Shown here: positions 49,840 to 55,471 of the stretch, piece after piece
Layout: each line of letters begins with the position of its first letter
Position numbering within the stretch: the stretch's first letter is position 1
Assembly: GCA_964652135.1 (NCBI GenBank)
Contig: CAZZAF010000003.1
Span: 4,371 to 68,370, forward strand
Length of the DNA stretch: 64,000 bases
Reading direction: 5' to 3'
Origin: an uncultured archaeon
GTDB taxonomy: Archaea; Halobacteriota; Archaeoglobi; Archaeoglobales; Archaeoglobaceae
Program-made: the position numbers and the translations under genes
Notes under the pieces: generated by a model
Databases searched by the model: none
Seen by the model: only the letters and a program-made list of their open reading frames with translations
Told to the model about the DNA's origin: nothing

Positions 49840-50955
49840 ATGCTTCACGAACTCTTCAGTAAATATAACGCTCAGTTCTTTGTTCAGTATGCAAGCAGCA
49901 AAGATGCGAACTTCTATTATGCAACCCGTTTCAAAATCCCCGATCCAGCTCTTCATGTTATTGGTAATGATGGGACTGATCTACTTATTGTGCATGAAAT
50001 GGAAAAAGAGAGGGCTGGGAGAGAAAGCAGTGTTAGGGAAATTGCCTCATTAACCGATCTGGGTTATTATGAGAATCTCAAGGAATTTAAGGATGCTAAA
50101 AAGGCTCTTGCCCATACCTATGTGGAATTACTGAAAAGCCATGGGGCAAAGAAGATTCTTATTCCTCCCAACTTTCCATCTTTTCTTTCGTTTTATTTCA
50201 AAGAATATCTGGAAGTTGAAATTGTTGAAAATCCATTTTCAAAGATTAGAGCTGTCAAGAGAAGAGATGAAATTGAGAAGATAAAAGAAACAAGTTTAGC
50301 AATCATAGATGCTTTCAACTATCTGCTGTCCCTGCTCAGGAAAAGAAAGAACATGAAATGCGAAGAGCTGAGGAATGAAGTCGAGCTTTACCTTTTTTCA
50401 AAAGGATATCTTGCTGAAGATACGATCATTGCTTCCGGTAAGCTGACGGCAGACCCGCATTTTACCGGTAGCGGAGATGTTGAAGATCATTTAATTGTAG
50501 ACGTATTTCCAAAGAGCAGAACGCATGGATACTATTCTGATTTTACAAGAACCGTGATTATTGAGGAGAACAAGGAAATCGAAGAAATGCTTGAAGCTGT
50601 TATTGAAGCAAAGGAAAAGGCTATATCGATGATCAAAGAGGGCGTGACTGCAAAAGAGGTTCATTATACTGTATGTGATGTGCTTGAAAGCAGAGGTTAC
50701 CATACGCTGAGAAACAAATCAAGGGAAGGATTTATACACTCAACAGGGCATGGAGTTGGGCTGGAAGTTCACGAAGAGCCAAGAATTTATGAGAATGAAG
50801 ATGTACTTAAGAGTGGAATGGTGTTTACCGTTGAGCCTGGACTTTATTATAGAAAATGGGGCGGTGTTAGGGTCGAAGACACGGTTGTCGTAACGAAACA
50901 CGGGTGCGAAATTCTGACACCATATCCTGGGAGGGTTGACCTGTGGAAGATATGA
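49840..50955 (+). CDS. M24-family Xaa-Pro aminopeptidase/dipeptidase
   Basis: Pita-bread metal ligands in DVFP...GYYSDFTRT, HSTGHGVGLEVHE, FTVEPG and VRVEDTV. Confidence 0.85.
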   Translation: MLHELFSKYNAQFFVQYASSKDANFYYATRFKIPDPALHVIGNDGTDLLIVHEMEKERAGRESSVREIASLTDLGYYENLKEFKDAKKALAHTYVELLKSHGAKKILIPPNFPSFLSFYFKEYLEVEIVENPFSKIRAVKRRDEIEKIKETSLAIIDAFNYLLSLLRKRKNMKCEELRNEVELYLFSKGYLAEDTIIASGKLTADPHFTGSGDVEDHLIVDVFPKSRTHGYYSDFTRTVIIEENKEIEEMLEAVIEAKEKAISMIKEGVTAKEVHYTVCDVLESRGYHTLRNKSREGFIHSTGHGVGLEVHEEPRIYENEDVLKSGMVFTVEPGLYYRKWGGVRVEDTVVVTKHGCEILTPYPGRVDLWKI

Positions 50956-51809
50956 TCATGAAGACAGTAGAAGCTGGGAAAATACTGAGACAGGTTAGGG
51001 AAGAGGCTGTAAAACTCGTTAAGCCTGGAGTAAAGTTGCTTGAAGTTGCAGAGTTTGTCGAAAACAGAATCAGAGAGCTTGGAGCTGAGCCAGCTTTTCC
51101 ATGTAACATATCCTTGAACAGCGATGCAGCTCATTCAACCCCCAAAAAGAACGATAAAAGCGTATTTAAGGAAGGAGACCTTGTCAAGCTCGATATTGGA
51201 GCACACATAGATGGTTATATTGCCGATACTGCAATAACAATTGATCTTGGCGATAACAGAGAGCTCGTTGAAGCATCCGAAGAGGCATTGAAGAAGGCTA
51301 TAGAAGTTGTGCACGCAGGCGTGGATACAGCTGAAATAGGAGCTGCAATCGAGTCAGTCATAAAGGAATTTGGTTTTAGACCGATTGTAAATCTTACTGG
51401 ACATGGGTTACTACCATATATAGCTCATGCACCTCCAACCATATTCAACTTCAAAACTGAGAGAGGCGTAAAGCTCGAAGAAGGAATGGTAATAGCGATA
51501 GAACCCTTCGTGACGAATGGAGTTGGCAAGGTTGTTGAGCGCAGTGAGGTGGAGATTTTCTCTCTGATTGATTTGAGACCTGTCAGGATGAAAATGGCAA
51601 GACAGTTGCTGGAAGAGATCTCCAAATATAAGACTTTGCCCTTCGCAAAGCGATGGCTGACCAAGGCTCCGGCTATAATTCTGAGCAAGCTTGTGAGAGA
51701 AGGAATTCTTAGAGGATATCCTGTGCTTACGGAGATGGGAGGAGGACTGGTTTCTCAGTCAGAACACACAGTAATTGTTGAAGAAGATGGTGCAAAGATA
51801 GTTACCTGA
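50952..51809 (+). CDS. map: methionine aminopeptidase, type 2 (archaeal)
   Basis: AFPCNISLNSDAAHSTP, DLVKLDIGAHIDGYIADTA, LTGHGL, IEPF and SQSEHTVIV. The start is ambiguous (50943 GTG, 50952 ATG or 50958 ATG). Confidence 0.9.
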   Translation: MIMKTVEAGKILRQVREEAVKLVKPGVKLLEVAEFVENRIRELGAEPAFPCNISLNSDAAHSTPKKNDKSVFKEGDLVKLDIGAHIDGYIADTAITIDLGDNRELVEASEEALKKAIEVVHAGVDTAEIGAAIESVIKEFGFRPIVNLTGHGLLPYIAHAPPTIFNFKTERGVKLEEGMVIAIEPFVTNGVGKVVERSEVEIFSLIDLRPVRMKMARQLLEEISKYKTLPFAKRWLTKAPAIILSKLVREGILRGYPVLTEMGGGLVSQSEHTVIVEEDGAKIVT

Positions 51810-51818
51810 ACAAAAACT

Positions 51819-52769
51819 TTAGAATCTCAACCTAGTTATTCCGGAAAAGAGCACCACTGCTGTGAGCTGGTTTGAGCGGATCGGGTAGTCGCCGTATCTA
51901 ACCTCTATATCTGGGTTAATTTTTTCGAGCATTTTTATACATGAGAATATGCCATCCATGGTTATCTCTTCAGGATCACCGGAAAATACAACTAGCGCAC
52001 TTTTAGCAGTTTCCAGATCGATTCCAATGCTGAGGTTGTTCTCTATAGCTTCTTTAAACATTTCTATCATTCTCTGTGTTCTCAATCCCTTTATTTCGTA
52101 CTCTTTTCTGCGGAAGATTTTTCTAAACCAGCTGAAGGGCAACTTCCTCTTTGAAGTTCCGATAACGGAAATTCCCTCTTTTTTCAGTGAATTCAGCACA
52201 TCAGATGTGTCAACAACTATTTCGCTGGCTTGCTTCTTCTTTAAATCTATTTCACCAACCATTGCAAGAATATTGAGTGATTCTATAATCCGGCTGTCGG
52301 TATCCTGGTTTTCCTCGAACAGTATTAGCACATCAACAACTTTCCTCAATTCTTTGATTCTATTCCTCAACTCTCCGAGATTTGAGTAGTCATTTAGAGA
52401 GGGTAGCACTCCAAGTGCGATAACAGGTTCTTCACAGACATCGCTCAATACCTTCGCAAGCTCAATACTAAGTGAAACACCAAACTCCTCACCGAGGGAT
52501 GTGGTAAGCAATATACTTTCAAACAGTTCATATTTGGAAAAAATTGTATTTACTATGCTTTTGATATCCTTCTCATTGAGTAAGCTTTCCCCCCATATAT
52601 GATATTTATTTTCATCTTTTATGCTTCTGAGCGATTTTAAGAGCTCTATATGGTCTGATATCGCATAACACTTGAATAGGGGTGCTCTGTTGACCCTCAT
52701 GCCATACTTTGCCATCAAATCTGATATTATTGCCCCCCTGTTCCCAGACCCAATTGTCAGAAGCTTCAT
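51819..52769 (-). CDS. divergent FtsZ/tubulin-superfamily protein with degenerate nucleotide-binding motifs
   Basis: By-eye alignment is collinear with archaeal FtsZ. KLLTIGSGNRG aligns with T1, and LLTTSLGEEFGVS replaces GGGTG(S/T)G. Also VIALGVLPS, VDVLILFEEN, VVDTSDV (T7-like) and AVVLFSGITRLRF at the C-terminus. ATG at 52769 with GGAGAAGGAGAGG upstream. Confidence 0.6.
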   Translation of the reverse strand: MKLLTIGSGNRGAIISDLMAKYGMRVNRAPLFKCYAISDHIELLKSLRSIKDENKYHIWGESLLNEKDIKSIVNTIFSKYELFESILLTTSLGEEFGVSLSIELAKVLSDVCEEPVIALGVLPSLNDYSNLGELRNRIKELRKVVDVLILFEENQDTDSRIIESLNILAMVGEIDLKKKQASEIVVDTSDVLNSLKKEGISVIGTSKRKLPFSWFRKIFRRKEYEIKGLRTQRMIEMFKEAIENNLSIGIDLETAKSALVVFSGDPEEITMDGIFSCIKMLEKINPDIEVRYGDYPIRSNQLTAVVLFSGITRLRF

Positions 52770-52891
52770 TTCAATGATCCTCTCCTTCTCCAATTTATTA
52801 AATGTTTGGTATCATCTAGAGGGTTTCCATGTCTATGTGCAGTTTATCTGGGGCGATTTAACTTTTTATATTGCATTTAAAATGTTTTTCA

Positions 52892-53941
52892 CTATACATT
52901 TTGCAATGTAAATGGTATCGGGGTGAAACACAGGATGGCCAGAATGAAAGTGAATATGCCGAGAATGTATCTTTTTCTATCAAGAGGTGTTGCGTCATCA
53001 ATCGGCTCTGGATGTCTTTGCATGGAAAAGAATAAGGTTATCAGTCCCCATAAAATCCAGATCGAATTGGATTCCTGGTAAAAATAGTTTATAGCGCTAC
53101 CCATCCCAATAAGAGCGAGGGGCATAATTTTCGATACTGCTTCTGCTTTTCTGCCGATCATGGCTCTCAGTATGTGCCCACCATCGAGTTGCCCGACAGG
53201 CACCAGGTTTAGAAATGTTATAAACATTCCTACCCAGCCTGCAAAGGCTATAGGATGGATAAATGCTCCATCAAAACCCGTAAGTGAAATTAAAGCCTCA
53301 AAGAGTGGTGGTGTGCCAACCATACCGACAAAGAAAGTATCCTCACTGATTTCGGGATGGAAAGGTATGTTCAGTCCGATATACGTGACAATTATTGAGG
53401 CAATGATACCGATAAGAGGTCCGGAAACTCCAACATCAAAGAGAGCTTTCCTGTTCGGAATTGGCCCTTTATGTCTTATCACTGCTCCAAGCGTTCCGAT
53501 AATCGTTGGGAATGGGATGAAATATGGTAGTGTCGTACGCATCCCCCATCTTTTTGCCGCAAAGTAGTGTCCCATTTCATGACTGCCGAGAACGAACATT
53601 ATGGCGATTGAGAAGAACACACCACCAATTATGTTGAATTCACCGTAATAGCTCGCACCTATGAGAGTCGTCGACCCAAATGTGGCTATTAAAAGCAGGA
53701 GGTTAATCCAGATTTTCTCATTTTCTCTACTTATTTTCCTGATATCTATAACGAGTTCGCCGTAATGCTGTTTAAGCTCTACTTTATACTCTGAAAGCAG
53801 GGATGCGAGCAATGGTTTGATTTTTTCAATATCTGCTTTCGGGTGAACGTAGTATCTAACTCCGTCTGGCAATTCCTCCATGTCATAGATGATAAAAACT
53901 TCTTCCAGCCTATTTTTGACCTCATCGATCATGAATCTCAA
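52892..53941 (-). CDS. site-2 protease family (M50) intramembrane metalloprotease
   Basis: HEMGHYFAAK (HExxH) and a later LDGG motif (VPVGQLDGGH). Polytopic. Confidence 0.85.
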   Translation of the reverse strand: MRFMIDEVKNRLEEVFIIYDMEELPDGVRYYVHPKADIEKIKPLLASLLSEYKVELKQHYGELVIDIRKISRENEKIWINLLLLIATFGSTTLIGASYYGEFNIIGGVFFSIAIMFVLGSHEMGHYFAAKRWGMRTTLPYFIPFPTIIGTLGAVIRHKGPIPNRKALFDVGVSGPLIGIIASIIVTYIGLNIPFHPEISEDTFFVGMVGTPPLFEALISLTGFDGAFIHPIAFAGWVGMFITFLNLVPVGQLDGGHILRAMIGRKAEAVSKIMPLALIGMGSAINYFYQESNSIWILWGLITLFFSMQRHPEPIDDATPLDRKRYILGIFTFILAILCFTPIPFTLQNV

Positions 53942-54329
53942 TCCAGCCCTCTTTCAGTGCATGTATTTTTACACAATCTCCACTCTTTATAATTTCTGTT
54001 GGATCAACCTCCGGTTTATCAAGCAGAGGTATACCTGAAATTATAGCTCCAACAGCTATTATTGGTTCTGTTTCGAGATTTATGATTGCTTTAGGAGCCG
54101 TACCAGCTTTCTTCATTCTCAGGAGAACGTAAGTTCCAACGGTTGATCCTCTTCCTGACGGGAAGATAAATATCTTGCCAGCAATGCTTTCTCCGGCTAT
54201 ATCGCTATCATTTGCAACCACAATGCCTGTATCGGGATCAACATCGCCAAGAAAAGAAAACTTCTTTTTGCTTACAATAACCTCGCCTTCAGCCTCACCC
54301 CTTGAGATCACTCTGGCTTTGATTTTCAT
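53922..54329 (-). CDS. aconitase X swivel-domain protein (DUF126): phosphomevalonate dehydratase small subunit
   Basis: MKIKARVISRGEAEGEVIVSKKKFSFLGDVDP...PSGRGSTVGTYVL. Its ATG at 54329 overlaps the large-subunit stop (ATGA). The longer track ORF is an out-of-context extension. Confidence 0.8.
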   Translation of the reverse strand: MKIKARVISRGEAEGEVIVSKKKFSFLGDVDPDTGIVVANDSDIAGESIAGKIFIFPSGRGSTVGTYVLLRMKKAGTAPKAIINLETEPIIAVGAIISGIPLLDKPEVDPTEIIKSGDCVKIHALKEGWIEIHDR

Positions 54330-55471
54330 TGTAATGCCCTCCTCACACACTCCTCCAGACTGCCAAACGCAACATTTACCTTCCTCAGTTTTGGAAGATA
54401 CGTGAGAGCTTTTCCGGAATTTACCATCACACATTCGTAAGCCTCGGTTGCAGGTGAAACGACCATACATGTGTCGTTGAAAACTTTTGCCCTGAAACTC
54501 TCTATCTTTTTCACAATTTCTTTGTTTTCCTCAGATATTTTTCTTGATGTGAACAGCCAGAGCTCTCTCTTTACTTTTTTACCCCCACTCTGCAGAATTT
54601 CGAGAACTTTGAGCAATTCTTCTTTTGATAGATGGGGGCAGCCGAGAGCGATCAAATCCGGCTCGCATTCAAACCTCATTTCTTTGATGTCAAATTCTAT
54701 TTTCTCATCTGGCATCTGGAAGTCTTTCCACTCTGGTGTTTGCCCTTCAACATGAAATATTGCTGTATTGCCGGTTGAAGCCATAGCAGCTCCAAGCAAT
54801 TTCAGCTCATCGTTCGTGAGATTTCTTGGCAATCTGAAAATCGGAATTTCGTTGTGCTTTAGCTCGTTTCCAATCTGGAAACCAAGAGCAGAAACATCTG
54901 CATCTTTGAGCTCGCCTTTAACTTCTATCAGGATATTTGGAGCTCTGTTTTCCTTTACATGCATGCCATAATACGGTGTTTTGCCGATTATTGCCGATGC
55001 TATTGCACTTATCCCACTTTCTCTGTTTGTTCTTGCTCCAATAACAGAGTTTGCGTAAATAACGGCTGAACTCTCAGCCCATGCCAGATGATCGCCATAT
55101 GAAGGAGGATAAACATAATAGGGTGTGCAGGTTAAAGTTAACTCAGCTCCAAGCTTTTCCAGAGCTTTTAGAATTCGCATCTGCTTTCTGTAAAAGCCCT
55201 CATCAATTCCCATTTCTTTCCATCTTTCGACGTCCATACCCGCTGGATTCACCATAGCTGGAACTTTCACCCTAGCATCGAGGCTTTCAAGCCACTCCAG
55301 TCCTGCATCACCGATATTCTGATATGATATTCCAGAAATCTGAGCTGATTTTACCGGAATGAGCTTTTCAGCACCGAAAATCTCTCCAAGAGCAACGAGT
55401 ATTTCCATGGATTTTGCAATTGTCGGGTTGTCGGATTCCAGCAACCTCTCCTCCTCTTTTGTCAAATACAT
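54326..55471 (-). CDS. aconitase X catalytic-domain protein (DUF521): phosphomevalonate dehydratase large subunit
   Basis: MYLTKEEERLL start, VKSAQISGISY and conserved Cys contexts (LTCTPYY; ALGCPHLS). ATG at 55471; the GTG at 55483 would overlap the UbiD stop. Confidence 0.85.
   Translation of the reverse strand: MYLTKEEERLLESDNPTIAKSMEILVALGEIFGAEKLIPVKSAQISGISYQNIGDAGLEWLESLDARVKVPAMVNPAGMDVERWKEMGIDEGFYRKQMRILKALEKLGAELTLTCTPYYVYPPSYGDHLAWAESSAVIYANSVIGARTNRESGISAIASAIIGKTPYYGMHVKENRAPNILIEVKGELKDADVSALGFQIGNELKHNEIPIFRLPRNLTNDELKLLGAAMASTGNTAIFHVEGQTPEWKDFQMPDEKIEFDIKEMRFECEPDLIALGCPHLSKEELLKVLEILQSGGKKVKRELWLFTSRKISEENKEIVKKIESFRAKVFNDTCMVVSPATEAYECVMVNSGKALTYLPKLRKVNVAFGSLEECVRRALQ

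What the first reader, a model, noticed from the sequence alone, without database searches (positions are those of the whole stretch)
51819..52769. FtsZ-fold paralogue that has lost the GGGTGxG tubulin signature but keeps a T7-like DxxD
The 316-aa product aligns collinearly, by eye, with archaeal FtsZ from N- to C-terminus. Matches are KLLTIGSGNRGAIISDL (T1 region), AISDHIELL, VIALGVLPS, VDVLILFEEN, VVDTSDVLNSLKKEGISVIG, ALVVFSGDPEEITMDG and AVVLFSGITRLRF.

The phosphate-binding T4 signature GGGTG(S/T)G is replaced by SLGEEFGVS, and T1 is degenerate. The position matching the T7 synergy loop (N-x-D-x-x-D in FtsZ) retains D-x-x-D (VVDTSDV). A protein that probably cannot bind GTP normally but can still present a T7 loop could cap or modulate filaments of canonical FtsZ/CetZ, or act nucleotide-independently.

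The gene sits about 100 nt downstream of, and co-oriented with, an S2P intramembrane protease and the AcnX/UbiD lipid-precursor genes. That placement hints at an envelope or membrane-remodelling context.
Basis: partly seen in the sequence, partly recalled or inferred. Interest (0 to 1): 0.6.

Follow-up and report, generated by a model that had tools for sequence, protein, structure and literature searches.

The report
CetZ tubulin paralogue without GTP pocket
This gene encodes an Archaeoglobi-specific relative of the archaeal tubulin-like protein CetZ that has lost nearly all of its own GTP-binding loops but keeps, unchanged in 102 relatives, the loop that triggers GTP hydrolysis in a neighbouring subunit, so it probably caps or regulates filaments of the cell's normal CetZ rather than polymerising on its own.

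Summary
Window 51819-52769 (minus strand) encodes a 316-aa protein with a confident tubulin/FtsZ fold (AF2 pLDDT 89). Its closest structures are Haloferax CetZ1 and CetZ2, not FtsZ. Pfam scores CetZ_C at 96 bits, but the Tubulin GTPase domain is below threshold.

Compared with canonical Archaeoglobi CetZ:
- the T3 loop is truncated and has no glycines;
- T4 GGGTGSG is replaced by a conserved acidic (D/E)(D/E)(F/Y)(G/S);
- the T5 'EG' is lost and the T6 segment is deleted;
- the C-terminal helix and tail are absent.

In contrast, the T7 block GEVVVDTSD is the most conserved part of 102 homologues. D190 aligns with the catalytic E218 of CetZ1. Both domains are under strong purifying selection.

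The family was found only in Archaeoglobi (70 loci in species-representative genomes) and coexists with a canonical CetZ. It is already listed as a "non-haloarchaeal CetZ" by Brown & Duggin (2023). No paper I could search mentions the pocket loss.

The best reading, which is inferred, is a pseudo-GTPase that donates its T7 loop to GTP-bound canonical CetZ and ends or regulates the filament. The proposed envelope context is not supported, because gene neighbours vary between genomes. I rate it a new variant of a known kind, of moderate interest.

The parts
51819..52769 (-). Gene for the 316-aa GTP-pocket-less CetZ paralogue (P0001), stop codon included
   Evidence: ORF and translation. 105 homologues of 300-328 aa, all carrying only PF21011. 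AF2 pLDDT 89.4. dN/dS about 0.03 against an 89%-identical orthologue.
52305..52769 (-). N-terminal domain (res 1-155): a degenerate GTPase domain
   Evidence: Pfam Tubulin PF00091 scores only 17.9 bits against a cutoff of 33. Alignments with canonical CetZ. Still under purifying selection, with dN/dS about 0.035.
52731..52757 (-). T1 remnant TIGSGNRGA (res 5-13)
   Evidence: G7 and G9 are invariant and G12 is present in 86 of 102. Canonical CetZ has IGFGQAGGK here.
52572..52598 (-). Truncated T3 region IWGESLLNE (res 58-66). The canonical 'GQTVVKGHGVGTDNKLG' gamma-phosphate loop is missing.
   Evidence: MAFFT alignments with same-order canonical CetZ show a gap of about 15-20 residues and no GxGxG.
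52476..52502 (-). Former T4 signature: TSLGEEFGV (res 90-98) in place of GLGGGTGSG
   Evidence: HMMER alignment to 4b46. In the family, position 94 is acidic in 93 of 102 and position 95 in 92 of 102. I checked the codons by hand.
52191..52226 (-). T7 loop and start of H8: SEIVVDTSDVLN (res 182-193). D187 and D190 correspond to CetZ1 D215 and E218.
   Evidence: E183, V185, D187, T188, S189 and D190 are invariant in 102 sequences. Block 181-190 has the lowest entropy in the protein, 0.29 bits. Alignment to 4b46.
52104..52151 (-). Cationic amphipathic segment KRKLPFSWFRKIFRRK (res 207-222), at the position of the CetZ1 M-loop tip
   Evidence: Highest helical hydrophobic moment in the protein (0.79, net +4). 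The family median net charge of the segment is +5. It aligns to CetZ1 'GGLLSRLTGG'. pLDDT is low here, 58-71.
51831..52301 (-). CetZ_C domain (res 157-313), including FSGDPEEITMDG and RYGDYP. The protein ends right after S10, with no H11 helix or C-terminal tail.
   Evidence: PF21011 at 2.8e-27, 95.7 bits. R291, G293 and D294 are invariant. The tail is absent relative to canonical CetZ.
52793..52802 (-). TATA-like TTTAATAAAT, 23 nt upstream of the ATG: a possible own promoter with leaderless or short-leader geometry
   Evidence: Read directly from the sequence. By eye only, with no transcript data.
52892..53941 (-). Upstream co-oriented S2P/Peptidase_M50 gene: a neighbour, not shown to be functionally linked
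   Evidence: PF02163 at 80 bits. Found upstream in only about 15-18 of 74 loci, often with a NUDIX gene in between.
50943..51809 (+). Convergent methionine-aminopeptidase-type M24 gene, the most frequently conserved neighbour
   Evidence: PF00557. Convergent downstream in 25 of 74 loci.

Best explanation
The gene encodes a divergent member of the CetZ branch of the tubulin/FtsZ superfamily. It was found only in Archaeoglobi and has become a pseudo-GTPase.

Shown at the level of sequence and predicted structure:
- The two-domain tubulin fold is intact.
- The loops that hold GTP on the 'top' face are truncated, replaced or deleted: T3, T4, T5 and T6.
- The 'bottom' face elements are kept, and the T7 loop is invariant. 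These elements are T7 GEVVVDTSD, H8, FSGxPxEITMDG and RYGDYP.
- The C-terminal tail is missing.
- The gene is under strong purifying selection and coexists with a canonical CetZ.

Inferred mechanism:
- The protein docks with its bottom face onto the GTP-bearing top face of a canonical CetZ subunit.
- It inserts D187 and D190 as the catalytic T7 residues, which triggers or tunes hydrolysis of the partner's GTP.
- Its own top face offers no nucleotide, so no further subunit can add.
- It therefore acts as an end-cap, a length or turnover regulator, or an obligate hetero-partner of CetZ filaments.
- The conserved acidic pair at the former T4 loop may stand in for phosphate and stabilise the empty pocket.
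- The cationic amphipathic M-loop segment may give lateral or membrane contacts.
For: Fold: AF2 pLDDT 89.4 and pTM 0.89. Foldseek top hits are CetZ1 4b46 (TM 0.82) and CetZ2 4b45 (TM 0.77).

Family: CetZ_C scores 95.7 bits, and Tubulin scores 17.9 bits, below its cutoff of 33.

Pocket loss: the T4 alignment and alignments with same-order canonical CetZ. None of the own-family representatives contains a GGGTG-type motif.

The acidic T4 replacement is itself conserved, in 92-93 of 102 sequences.

T7: the six positions E183, V185, D187, T188, S189 and D190 are invariant, and this block has the lowest entropy in the protein. D190 aligns with CetZ1 E218. The E218A mutation gives hyperstable CetZ1 polymers, and the T4 mutation G108S abolishes function (bioRxiv 10.1101/2024.04.08.588506).

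Selection: dN/dS is about 0.03 in both domains. Intact ORFs are present in 70 loci from species-representative genomes.

Partner availability: a canonical CetZ is present in A. profundus, G. acetivorans and G. ahangari, which also carry the degenerate paralogue. The literature counts FtsZ1, FtsZ2 and two CetZ per Archaeoglobales genome.

The T7-H8 motif matches canonical CetZ (GEMVVDSSEVINTL) rather than the FtsZ type.

Precedent: ARC3, a protein with an FtsZ-like domain, directly inhibits Z-ring assembly and is reported to enhance FtsZ2 GTPase activity (PMC12232670).
Against: - There is no biochemical, structural-complex or expression evidence. No RNA runs exist for this organism.
- A hetero-complex could not be modelled with the tools available.
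- The T1 glycines are invariant and a T2-like Asn is common, so a remodelled ligand site cannot be excluded.
- The top-face loss was judged from motifs and alignments, not from a coordinate superposition.
- The gene is not linked to the canonical cetZ gene, and no neighbour is conserved.
- The window's own genome could not be searched for its canonical CetZ.
- The earlier agent's identical reading of the F. placidus orthologue is not independent evidence.
Confidence: 0.5

Rival explanations
1. It is a nucleotide-independent structural protein. It self-assembles, or binds the membrane or the sides of filaments, through its remodelled surfaces: the cationic amphipathic M-loop segment and the conserved H1-S2 motif RVNxxxLFKCYA. 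On this view T7 is conserved for a structural rather than a catalytic reason.
For: - The M-loop segment has the highest hydrophobic moment in the protein and a family median charge of +5.
- The hydrophobic tip of the CetZ1 M-loop is essential for assembly.
- Family-specific invariant residues N27, L31 and F32 lie in the H1-S2 region. In tubulin this region makes lateral contacts (my background knowledge).
Against: - In a homopolymer, the acidic T7 residues (D187, D190) would face the acidic former T4 residues (D/E94, D/E95) with no nucleotide or Mg between them, which should be repulsive.
- This view does not explain why T7 is the single most conserved block (0.29 bits).
Confidence: 0.2
2. The pocket is remodelled rather than dead. 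It binds a different ligand, such as a divalent cation through the acidic pair or another nucleotide or cofactor, which controls assembly.
For: - T1 residues G7 and G9 are invariant and G12 is largely kept.
- The acidic pair at T4 is conserved rather than random.
- The N-terminal domain is under purifying selection as strong as that on the C-terminal domain.
Against: Four of the six nucleotide-contacting loops are truncated, deleted or replaced. Acidic residues at the phosphate loop argue against any phosphate-bearing ligand.
Confidence: 0.1
3. The partner is FtsZ1 or FtsZ2 rather than CetZ. The protein would then be a cell-division regulator, a natural FtsZ capper analogous to ARC3.
For: NCBI names many members 'cell division protein', but this is only an automatic name. 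Archaeoglobales carry FtsZ1 and FtsZ2. ARC3 provides a precedent.
Against: - The bottom-face motifs are of CetZ type: VVD(S/T)S(D/E)xxN(S/T)L and R(Y/A)GDYP.
- The C-terminal domain matches CetZ_C and gives no FtsZ_C hit.
- The nearest structures are CetZ1 and CetZ2.
Confidence: 0.1
4. It is a decaying, functionless remnant of a duplicated cetZ gene.
For: The canonical motifs are lost. Branch lengths are about seven times those of the canonical CetZ in the same genomes: 0.47 versus 0.064 for the Geoglobus pair.
Against: - Full-length intact ORFs are present in 70 loci from species-representative genomes across the class.
- dN/dS is about 0.03, and pN/pS about 0.08-0.1 even allowing for dS saturation.
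- Twenty columns are invariant in 102 sequences.
- The AF2 model is confident.
Confidence: 0.02

Closest known systems
CetZ1 / CetZ2 of Haloferax volcanii (PDB 4B46, 4B45), the canonical CetZ family
   Same: - Same two-domain tubulin fold (TM 0.82 and 0.77).
- Same CetZ_C domain.
- Same T7-H8 motif, with an acidic residue at the CetZ1 E218 position.
- An amphipathic M-loop segment at the same position.
- The shared motifs 'GPPExL..G' and 'R.GDYP'.
   Different: - No GGGTGSG signature.
- T3 is truncated, the T5 'EG' is lost and the T6 segment is deleted.
- Pfam Tubulin domain scores below threshold.
- No H11 helix or C-terminal tail; the CetZ1 tail LESLF is needed for function.
- About 70 residues shorter.
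- GTP-dependent polymerisation is therefore unlikely.
'Non-Halobacteria-like CetZ' cluster of Archaeoglobales (Brown & Duggin 2023, PMC9856176)
   Same: These are the same proteins. F2KRD9 (A. veneficus) and D3S2A9 (F. placidus) in their table are P0013 and P0053, at 60% and 47% identity to the window protein.
   Different: That paper classifies them by phylogeny and AF2 shape (short M-loop) and proposes that they pair functionally with the Halobacteria-like CetZ. It does not report the loss of the GTP-binding loops or the invariant T7; the terms 'GTP-binding' and 'nucleotide-binding' do not occur in it.
Methanomicrobiales 500-950-aa CetZ-like proteins (e.g. P0126, P0127; Methanoregulaceae)
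   Same: They are the sister group in my tree (SH-aLRT 96). They also lack the T3 GxGxG loop and have a non-canonical T4. They keep D..E in T7 (VVLDAGEILNT).
   Different: - They keep a T1 GGAG and a half T4 (GLGG-T/N/S-x).
- They score above the Pfam Tubulin cutoff (41-50 bits).
- They keep the H11 helix and carry long C-terminal extensions.
- Their degeneration is much milder.
ARC3 of plant chloroplasts (FtsZ-like domain plus MORN)
   Same: It is an FtsZ-derived protein that does not build the ring itself. It acts directly on FtsZ filaments, inhibiting assembly, and is reported to enhance FtsZ2 GTPase activity (PMC12232670). That ARC3 lacks GTP binding is from my memory.
   Different: ARC3 is eukaryotic and FtsZ-derived rather than CetZ-derived, and it is a multidomain protein. 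The two are independent evolutionary events. No role for an ARC3 T7 loop is known to me.
Engineered one-faced FtsZ 'capper' mutants, and the alpha/beta-tubulin division of labour (background knowledge)
   Same: In both cases a subunit has only one competent longitudinal face, so it terminates or polarises a protofilament. In alpha/beta-tubulin, only one partner's T7 residue is catalytic and one nucleotide site is non-exchangeable.
   Different: The capper mutants are laboratory constructs, and alpha/beta-tubulin subunits both still bind GTP. Here the asymmetry is natural, conserved across a class, and involves complete loss of one pocket.

Membership tests
Tubulin/FtsZ superfamily | Two-domain fold: a Rossmann-like N-domain, the core helix H7 and a C-terminal domain | tested here: met
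   AF2 pLDDT 89.4 and pTM 0.89. Foldseek gives 863 PDB hits at E<=1e-3. The top hits are 4b46 at TM 0.82 and FtsZ structures at about TM 0.7.
Tubulin/FtsZ superfamily | Tubulin signature motif GGGTG(S/T)G in loop T4 | tested here: not met
   The window protein has SLGEEFGVS at that position. The family consensus is (D/E)(D/E)(F/Y)(G/S). No GGGTG-type motif occurs in any own-family representative.
Tubulin/FtsZ superfamily | Pfam PF00091 GTPase domain above the gathering score | tested here: not met
   17.9 bits against a cutoff of 33, covering only residues 67-152.
Tubulin/FtsZ superfamily | GTP binding and GTP-dependent polymerisation | not testable with these tools
   This needs purified protein. 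Loss of T3, T4, T5 and T6 predicts that it does not bind GTP.
CetZ family | CetZ_C domain (PF21011) above the gathering score | tested here: met
   95.7 bits against a cutoff of 21.6, residues 157-313. All 105 homologues carry PF21011.
CetZ family | Placement inside the CetZ clade in phylogeny | tested here: inconclusive
   Orthologues are listed as CetZ by Brown & Duggin. In my unrooted tree the family, together with the Methanomicrobiales long group, sits on one side of a branch (SH-aLRT 96) and all canonical CetZ on the other. No FtsZ outgroup was available, and the long stem (0.84) invites long-branch artefacts.
CetZ family | Acidic catalytic residue in T7 (CetZ1 E218) within VVD(S/A)SE | tested here: met
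   VVDTSD, with D190 aligned to E218. It is invariant in 102 of 102 sequences.
CetZ family | C-terminal helix H11 plus a conserved hydrophobic C-terminal tail | tested here: not met
   The protein ends at ...FSGITRLRF, directly after S10. Canonical Archaeoglobi CetZ continues for about 40 aa, ending in EDIEPLI/F.
CetZ family | CetZ-specific residues around the GTP pocket (Brown & Duggin 2023, Fig. 2) | not testable with these tools
   The residue list is in a figure that is not held. Because the pocket loops are replaced or deleted, many of these positions cannot be met.
FtsZ family | FtsZ_C domain and T7 motif N-x-D-x-x-D | tested here: not met
   There is no FtsZ_C hit even at E<=10. The T7 sequence is V-V-D-T-S-D, with no Asn. 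The structural hits to FtsZ are weaker than those to CetZ.
FtsZL1 / Tubulin_2 (PF13809) families | Match to the Tubulin_2 profile | tested here: not met
   No hit at E<=10.

The most novel reading that the evidence does not exclude
Archaeoglobi carry a natural, dedicated 'T7-only' tubulin-superfamily subunit. It is a pseudo-GTPase that forms a polar heterodimer or end-cap with canonical CetZ. It supplies the catalytic loop for the partner's GTP but offers no nucleotide face of its own. This would be a prokaryotic, more extreme counterpart of the alpha/beta-tubulin division of labour. It would also be the first natural protein-encoded end-capper or GTPase activator derived from the filament subunit itself in archaea.
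Probability: 0.35. Interest if true: 0.75.

Novelty: new variant of a known kind. Interest (0 to 1): 0.55.

Why it matters
How CetZ filaments are nucleated, limited and turned over is unknown. No CetZ regulator has been described in the literature I could search.

A conserved paralogue that keeps only the hydrolysis-triggering face would be a built-in regulator. It would also be a ready-made tool, as a natural capper, for determining the kinetic polarity and dynamics of CetZ polymers.

The family also shows how a tubulin-fold GTPase can become a pseudo-enzyme while staying under strong selection. That bears on how heterodimeric tubulins with unequal nucleotide sites could evolve.

If the protein turns out to be a nucleotide-independent scaffold instead, it would still be a rare tubulin-fold protein working without GTP.

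Tried and rejected
- **Own genome.** I therefore could not show the canonical CetZ, FtsZ1 or FtsZ2 of this very organism. I relied on named relatives and the literature.
- **Expression.** No RNA run holds the gene. Only subsurface and groundwater DNA metagenomes do.
- **Literature.** The Duggin et al. 2015 Nature paper is not held. The list of CetZ-defining residues sits in a figure that is not held. Searches for 'pseudo-GTPase', 'degenerate' or 'inactivated' CetZ found nothing relevant.
- **Genome context as a functional clue.** I clustered the ORFs of 74 loci. The neighbours are housekeeping genes (MetAP, Xaa-Pro peptidase, NUDIX, TruA, IPMDH, GAPDH, LeuD) and vary between clades, so I rejected the envelope or S2P link.
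- **NCBIfam.** No meaningful hit.
- **Weak Pfam hits.** Imm30, Pro_dh and RNase_HII all scored below their cutoffs, and I dismissed them.
- **Longer TTG start at 52793.** Rejected on the N-termini of the homologues.
- **Pseudogene reading.** Rejected on dN/dS and conservation.
- **Hetero-complex modelling.** Not possible, because the structure tool takes single natural chains only and returns no coordinates. The pocket was therefore judged from alignments, not from a superposition.
Full report
**1. The observation**

Window 51819-52769 holds an ATG-initiated ORF of 316 aa on the minus strand. An in-frame TTG 24 nt upstream is possible, but all homologues begin M(K/R)LLTIG, so the ATG at 52769 is the start.

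The gene lies 122 nt downstream of, and co-oriented with, a Peptidase_M50 (S2P) gene at 52892-53941. That gene follows AcnX-swivel, AcnX and UbiD genes. Downstream, a methionine-aminopeptidase-type M24 gene converges on it. A TATA-like TTTAATAAAT lies 23 nt upstream of the ATG. This suggests the gene has its own promoter, but that reading is by eye only.

**2. What the protein is**

- Pfam gives CetZ_C (PF21011) at 95.7 bits over residues 157-313. The Tubulin GTPase domain reaches only 17.9 bits against a cutoff of 33. There is no FtsZ_C or Tubulin_2 hit.
- phmmer against PDB finds only H. volcanii CetZ1 (4b46, 2e-16) and CetZ2 (4b45, 2e-13).
- An AlphaFold2 model built on 102 homologues is confident: pLDDT 89.4, pTM 0.89. 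The low-confidence parts are residues 171-190 and 211-230.
- Foldseek puts CetZ1 (TM 0.82, E 1.8e-22) and CetZ2 (TM 0.77) first, followed by dozens of FtsZ structures at TM about 0.7 and the Methanosaeta CetZ 3zid at 0.75.

So the tubulin/FtsZ fold is real, and the nearest family is CetZ, not FtsZ.

**3. The nucleotide pocket**

The HMMER alignment with 4b46 places SLGEEFGVS on GLGGGTGSG (T4) and VVDTSDV on VVDSSEI (CetZ1 D215...E218). I then aligned the protein with canonical CetZ, including those of A. profundus, G. acetivorans and G. ahangari, which also carry the degenerate paralogue. These alignments show the following.

| Element | Canonical CetZ | This family |
|---|---|---|
| T1 | IGFGQAGGK | TIGxGx(R/K)G; G7 and G9 invariant |
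| T3 (gamma-phosphate loop) | GQTVVKGHGVGTDNKLG | 5-9 residues, no glycine motif |
| T4 | GGGTGSG | (D/E)(D/E)(F/Y)(G/S) |
| T5 | LPAPEEG | LPxL.., no EG |
| S5-H7 stretch including T6 | VDNGAWKFEG...INEEI | about 13 residues shorter, Asn lost |
| H11 helix and C-terminal tail (about 40 aa) | present | absent |

The T4 replacement is not random decay. Position 94 is acidic in 93 of 102 sequences and position 95 in 92 of 102.

In CetZ1, a single T4 substitution (G108S) abolishes function, and the tail motif is also required (bioRxiv 10.1101/2024.04.08.588506). Canonical GTP binding and GTP-driven homopolymerisation are therefore very unlikely. This is an inference from motifs. I had no coordinates to superpose.

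**4. What is kept**

Twenty columns are invariant in the 102-sequence alignment. Six of them lie in the T7 loop (E183, V185, D187, T188, S189, D190) and three just before it (G172, E173, D175). The others include R291, G293 and D294 (RYGDYP) and G273 (ITMDG).

The block 181-190 has the lowest entropy in the protein, 0.29 bits against a mean of 1.5-1.8. D190 corresponds to CetZ1 E218, the catalytic T7 residue whose mutation gives hyperstable polymers.

The T7-H8 motif is of CetZ type: GEMVVDSSEVINTL in canonical Archaeoglobi CetZ against SEIVVDTSDVLNSL here.

Residues 207-222 (KRKLPFSWFRKIFRRK) lie where CetZ1 has its amphipathic M-loop tip. This segment has the highest helical hydrophobic moment in the protein and a family median net charge of +5.

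**5. Distribution, selection and phylogeny**

- The word-indexed protein search returned 105 homologues of about 300-328 aa. All carry PF21011 only, and all named ones come from Archaeoglobus, Ferroglobus or Geoglobus.
- A scan of one genome per prokaryotic species returned 70 loci, all labelled Archaeoglobi. One 2.9-kb contig is binned as Arcobacter, which is probably mis-binning. That scan was seeded on the motif GEVVVDTSD, so it is biased toward sequences with an intact T7.
- The unbiased HMMER scan of 1.84 billion representatives also found only a handful of own-family clusters, then a sharp drop to other groups.
- dN/dS against an 89%-identical orthologue is about 0.03 in both the N-terminal and the C-terminal domain. 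dS is saturated, but pN/pS is still about 0.08-0.1. The degenerate GTPase domain is therefore functionally constrained.
- In an unrooted ML tree the family is monophyletic (SH-aLRT 100). It groups (96) with a large set of 500-950-aa Methanomicrobiales proteins, against all canonical CetZ.
- The family evolves about seven times faster than the canonical CetZ of the same genomes: 0.47 against 0.064 for the Geoglobus pair.

**6. Relation to what is known**

The A. veneficus and F. placidus orthologues are UniProt F2KRD9 and D3S2A9. Brown & Duggin (2023, PMC9856176) list exactly these as 'CetZ - Non-haloarchaea'. They report four tubulin-superfamily proteins per Archaeoglobales genome: FtsZ1, FtsZ2, a Halobacteria-like CetZ and this one. 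They also suggest the two CetZs may be a functional pair.

The family is therefore catalogued. That paper does not mention the GTP-binding loops of this group. My other searches found no description of a pocket-less CetZ.

An earlier agent of this scan reached the same reading for the F. placidus orthologue. That agrees with my result but is not independent support.

**7. Context**

I clustered all ORFs of 74 loci. The results were:
- a convergent M24 aminopeptidase in 25 loci;
- a co-oriented NUDIX gene immediately upstream in 20, which is absent in this window;
- a convergent TruA in 22;
- S2P upstream in about 15-18;
- otherwise IPMDH, GAPDH, LeuD and similar genes.

No neighbour is universal and none is cytoskeletal. 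The S2P/AcnX/UbiD neighbourhood is clade-specific synteny and does not indicate an envelope role.

**8. Mechanism (inferred)**

In tubulin-superfamily protofilaments, the T7 loop on the bottom face of one subunit completes the GTPase site on the top face of the next. This is established knowledge. A subunit with an intact, invariant bottom face and no nucleotide-bearing top face can dock on a GTP-bound canonical subunit and trigger or tune its hydrolysis. It cannot be extended.

The most economical reading is therefore a filament end-cap, turnover regulator or obligate hetero-partner of the canonical CetZ. I give this about 0.5.

The conserved acidic pair at T4 may mimic phosphate and stabilise the empty pocket. 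The cationic amphipathic M-loop may provide lateral or membrane contacts.

ARC3 of chloroplasts is a functional precedent. It has an FtsZ-like domain, inhibits Z-ring assembly and is reported to enhance FtsZ2 GTPase activity (PMC12232670).

Rival readings and my probabilities:
- a nucleotide-independent scaffold (0.2);
- a remodelled ligand site (0.1);
- FtsZ rather than CetZ as the partner (0.1);
- a dead relic (0.02, contradicted by the selection data).

**9. Verdict**

It is a new variant of a known kind, a class-wide pseudo-GTPase branch of CetZ. Interest is moderate (0.55). It would be higher if the capper or hetero-partner role were shown.

**Limits**
- The window's own genome could not be searched.
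- There are no transcript data.
- No complex could be modelled.

Noticed in passing
P0126-P0167 and P0387-P0500 (no window coordinates); Methanomicrobiales / Methanoregulaceae proteins: This is a large sister family of CetZ-like proteins, with 819 proteins at E<=1e-20, 500-950 aa long and carrying long C-terminal extensions. They also lack the T3 GxGxG loop. Their T4 is GLGG(T/N/S)x instead of GGGTGSG, and they keep D..E in T7 (VVLDAGEILNT). Partial pocket degeneration may therefore predate the split from the Archaeoglobi family.
   Followed up: partly
window 52770-52891, compared with L003, L004, L041 and others: In 20 related loci a 185-aa NUDIX hydrolase gene sits co-oriented directly upstream of the cetZ-like gene, between it and S2P. 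In this window that gene is absent and only a 122-nt spacer remains.
   Followed up: partly
window 51949-52389 (+): A 146-aa antisense ORF lies inside the gene. It recurs in 40 of 74 loci. This is most simply a shadow of the conserved sense frame, not a gene.
   Followed up: partly
L071 (DQSS01000174.1, 2.9 kb): A contig carrying this Archaeoglobi-specific gene is filed under a bacterial 'Arcobacter sp.' MAG. This is probably a binning error in the public record.
   Followed up: no
tree; P0347, P0357, P0361, P0383: The canonical CetZ of Archaeoglobi is extremely conserved, with end branches of 0.02-0.1. The pocket-less paralogue in the same genomes evolves about seven times faster, except in its T7 block.
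   Followed up: partly
window 52793-52802 and 52771-52790 (-): A TATA-like TTTAATAAAT lies 23 nt upstream of the ATG, which would give a leaderless or very short-leader mRNA. In that case the purine-rich GGAGAAGGAGAGG just before the ATG would lie upstream of the transcript start rather than act as a ribosome-binding site.
   Followed up: no
window 53922-54470 (-) and 52892-53941 (-): The listed ORF for the AcnX small subunit extends about 50 codons upstream of the Pfam-matched part, so the real start is probably the ATG at 54317. The listed TTG start of S2P overlaps its stop by 20 nt. Both starts are uncertain.
   Followed up: no
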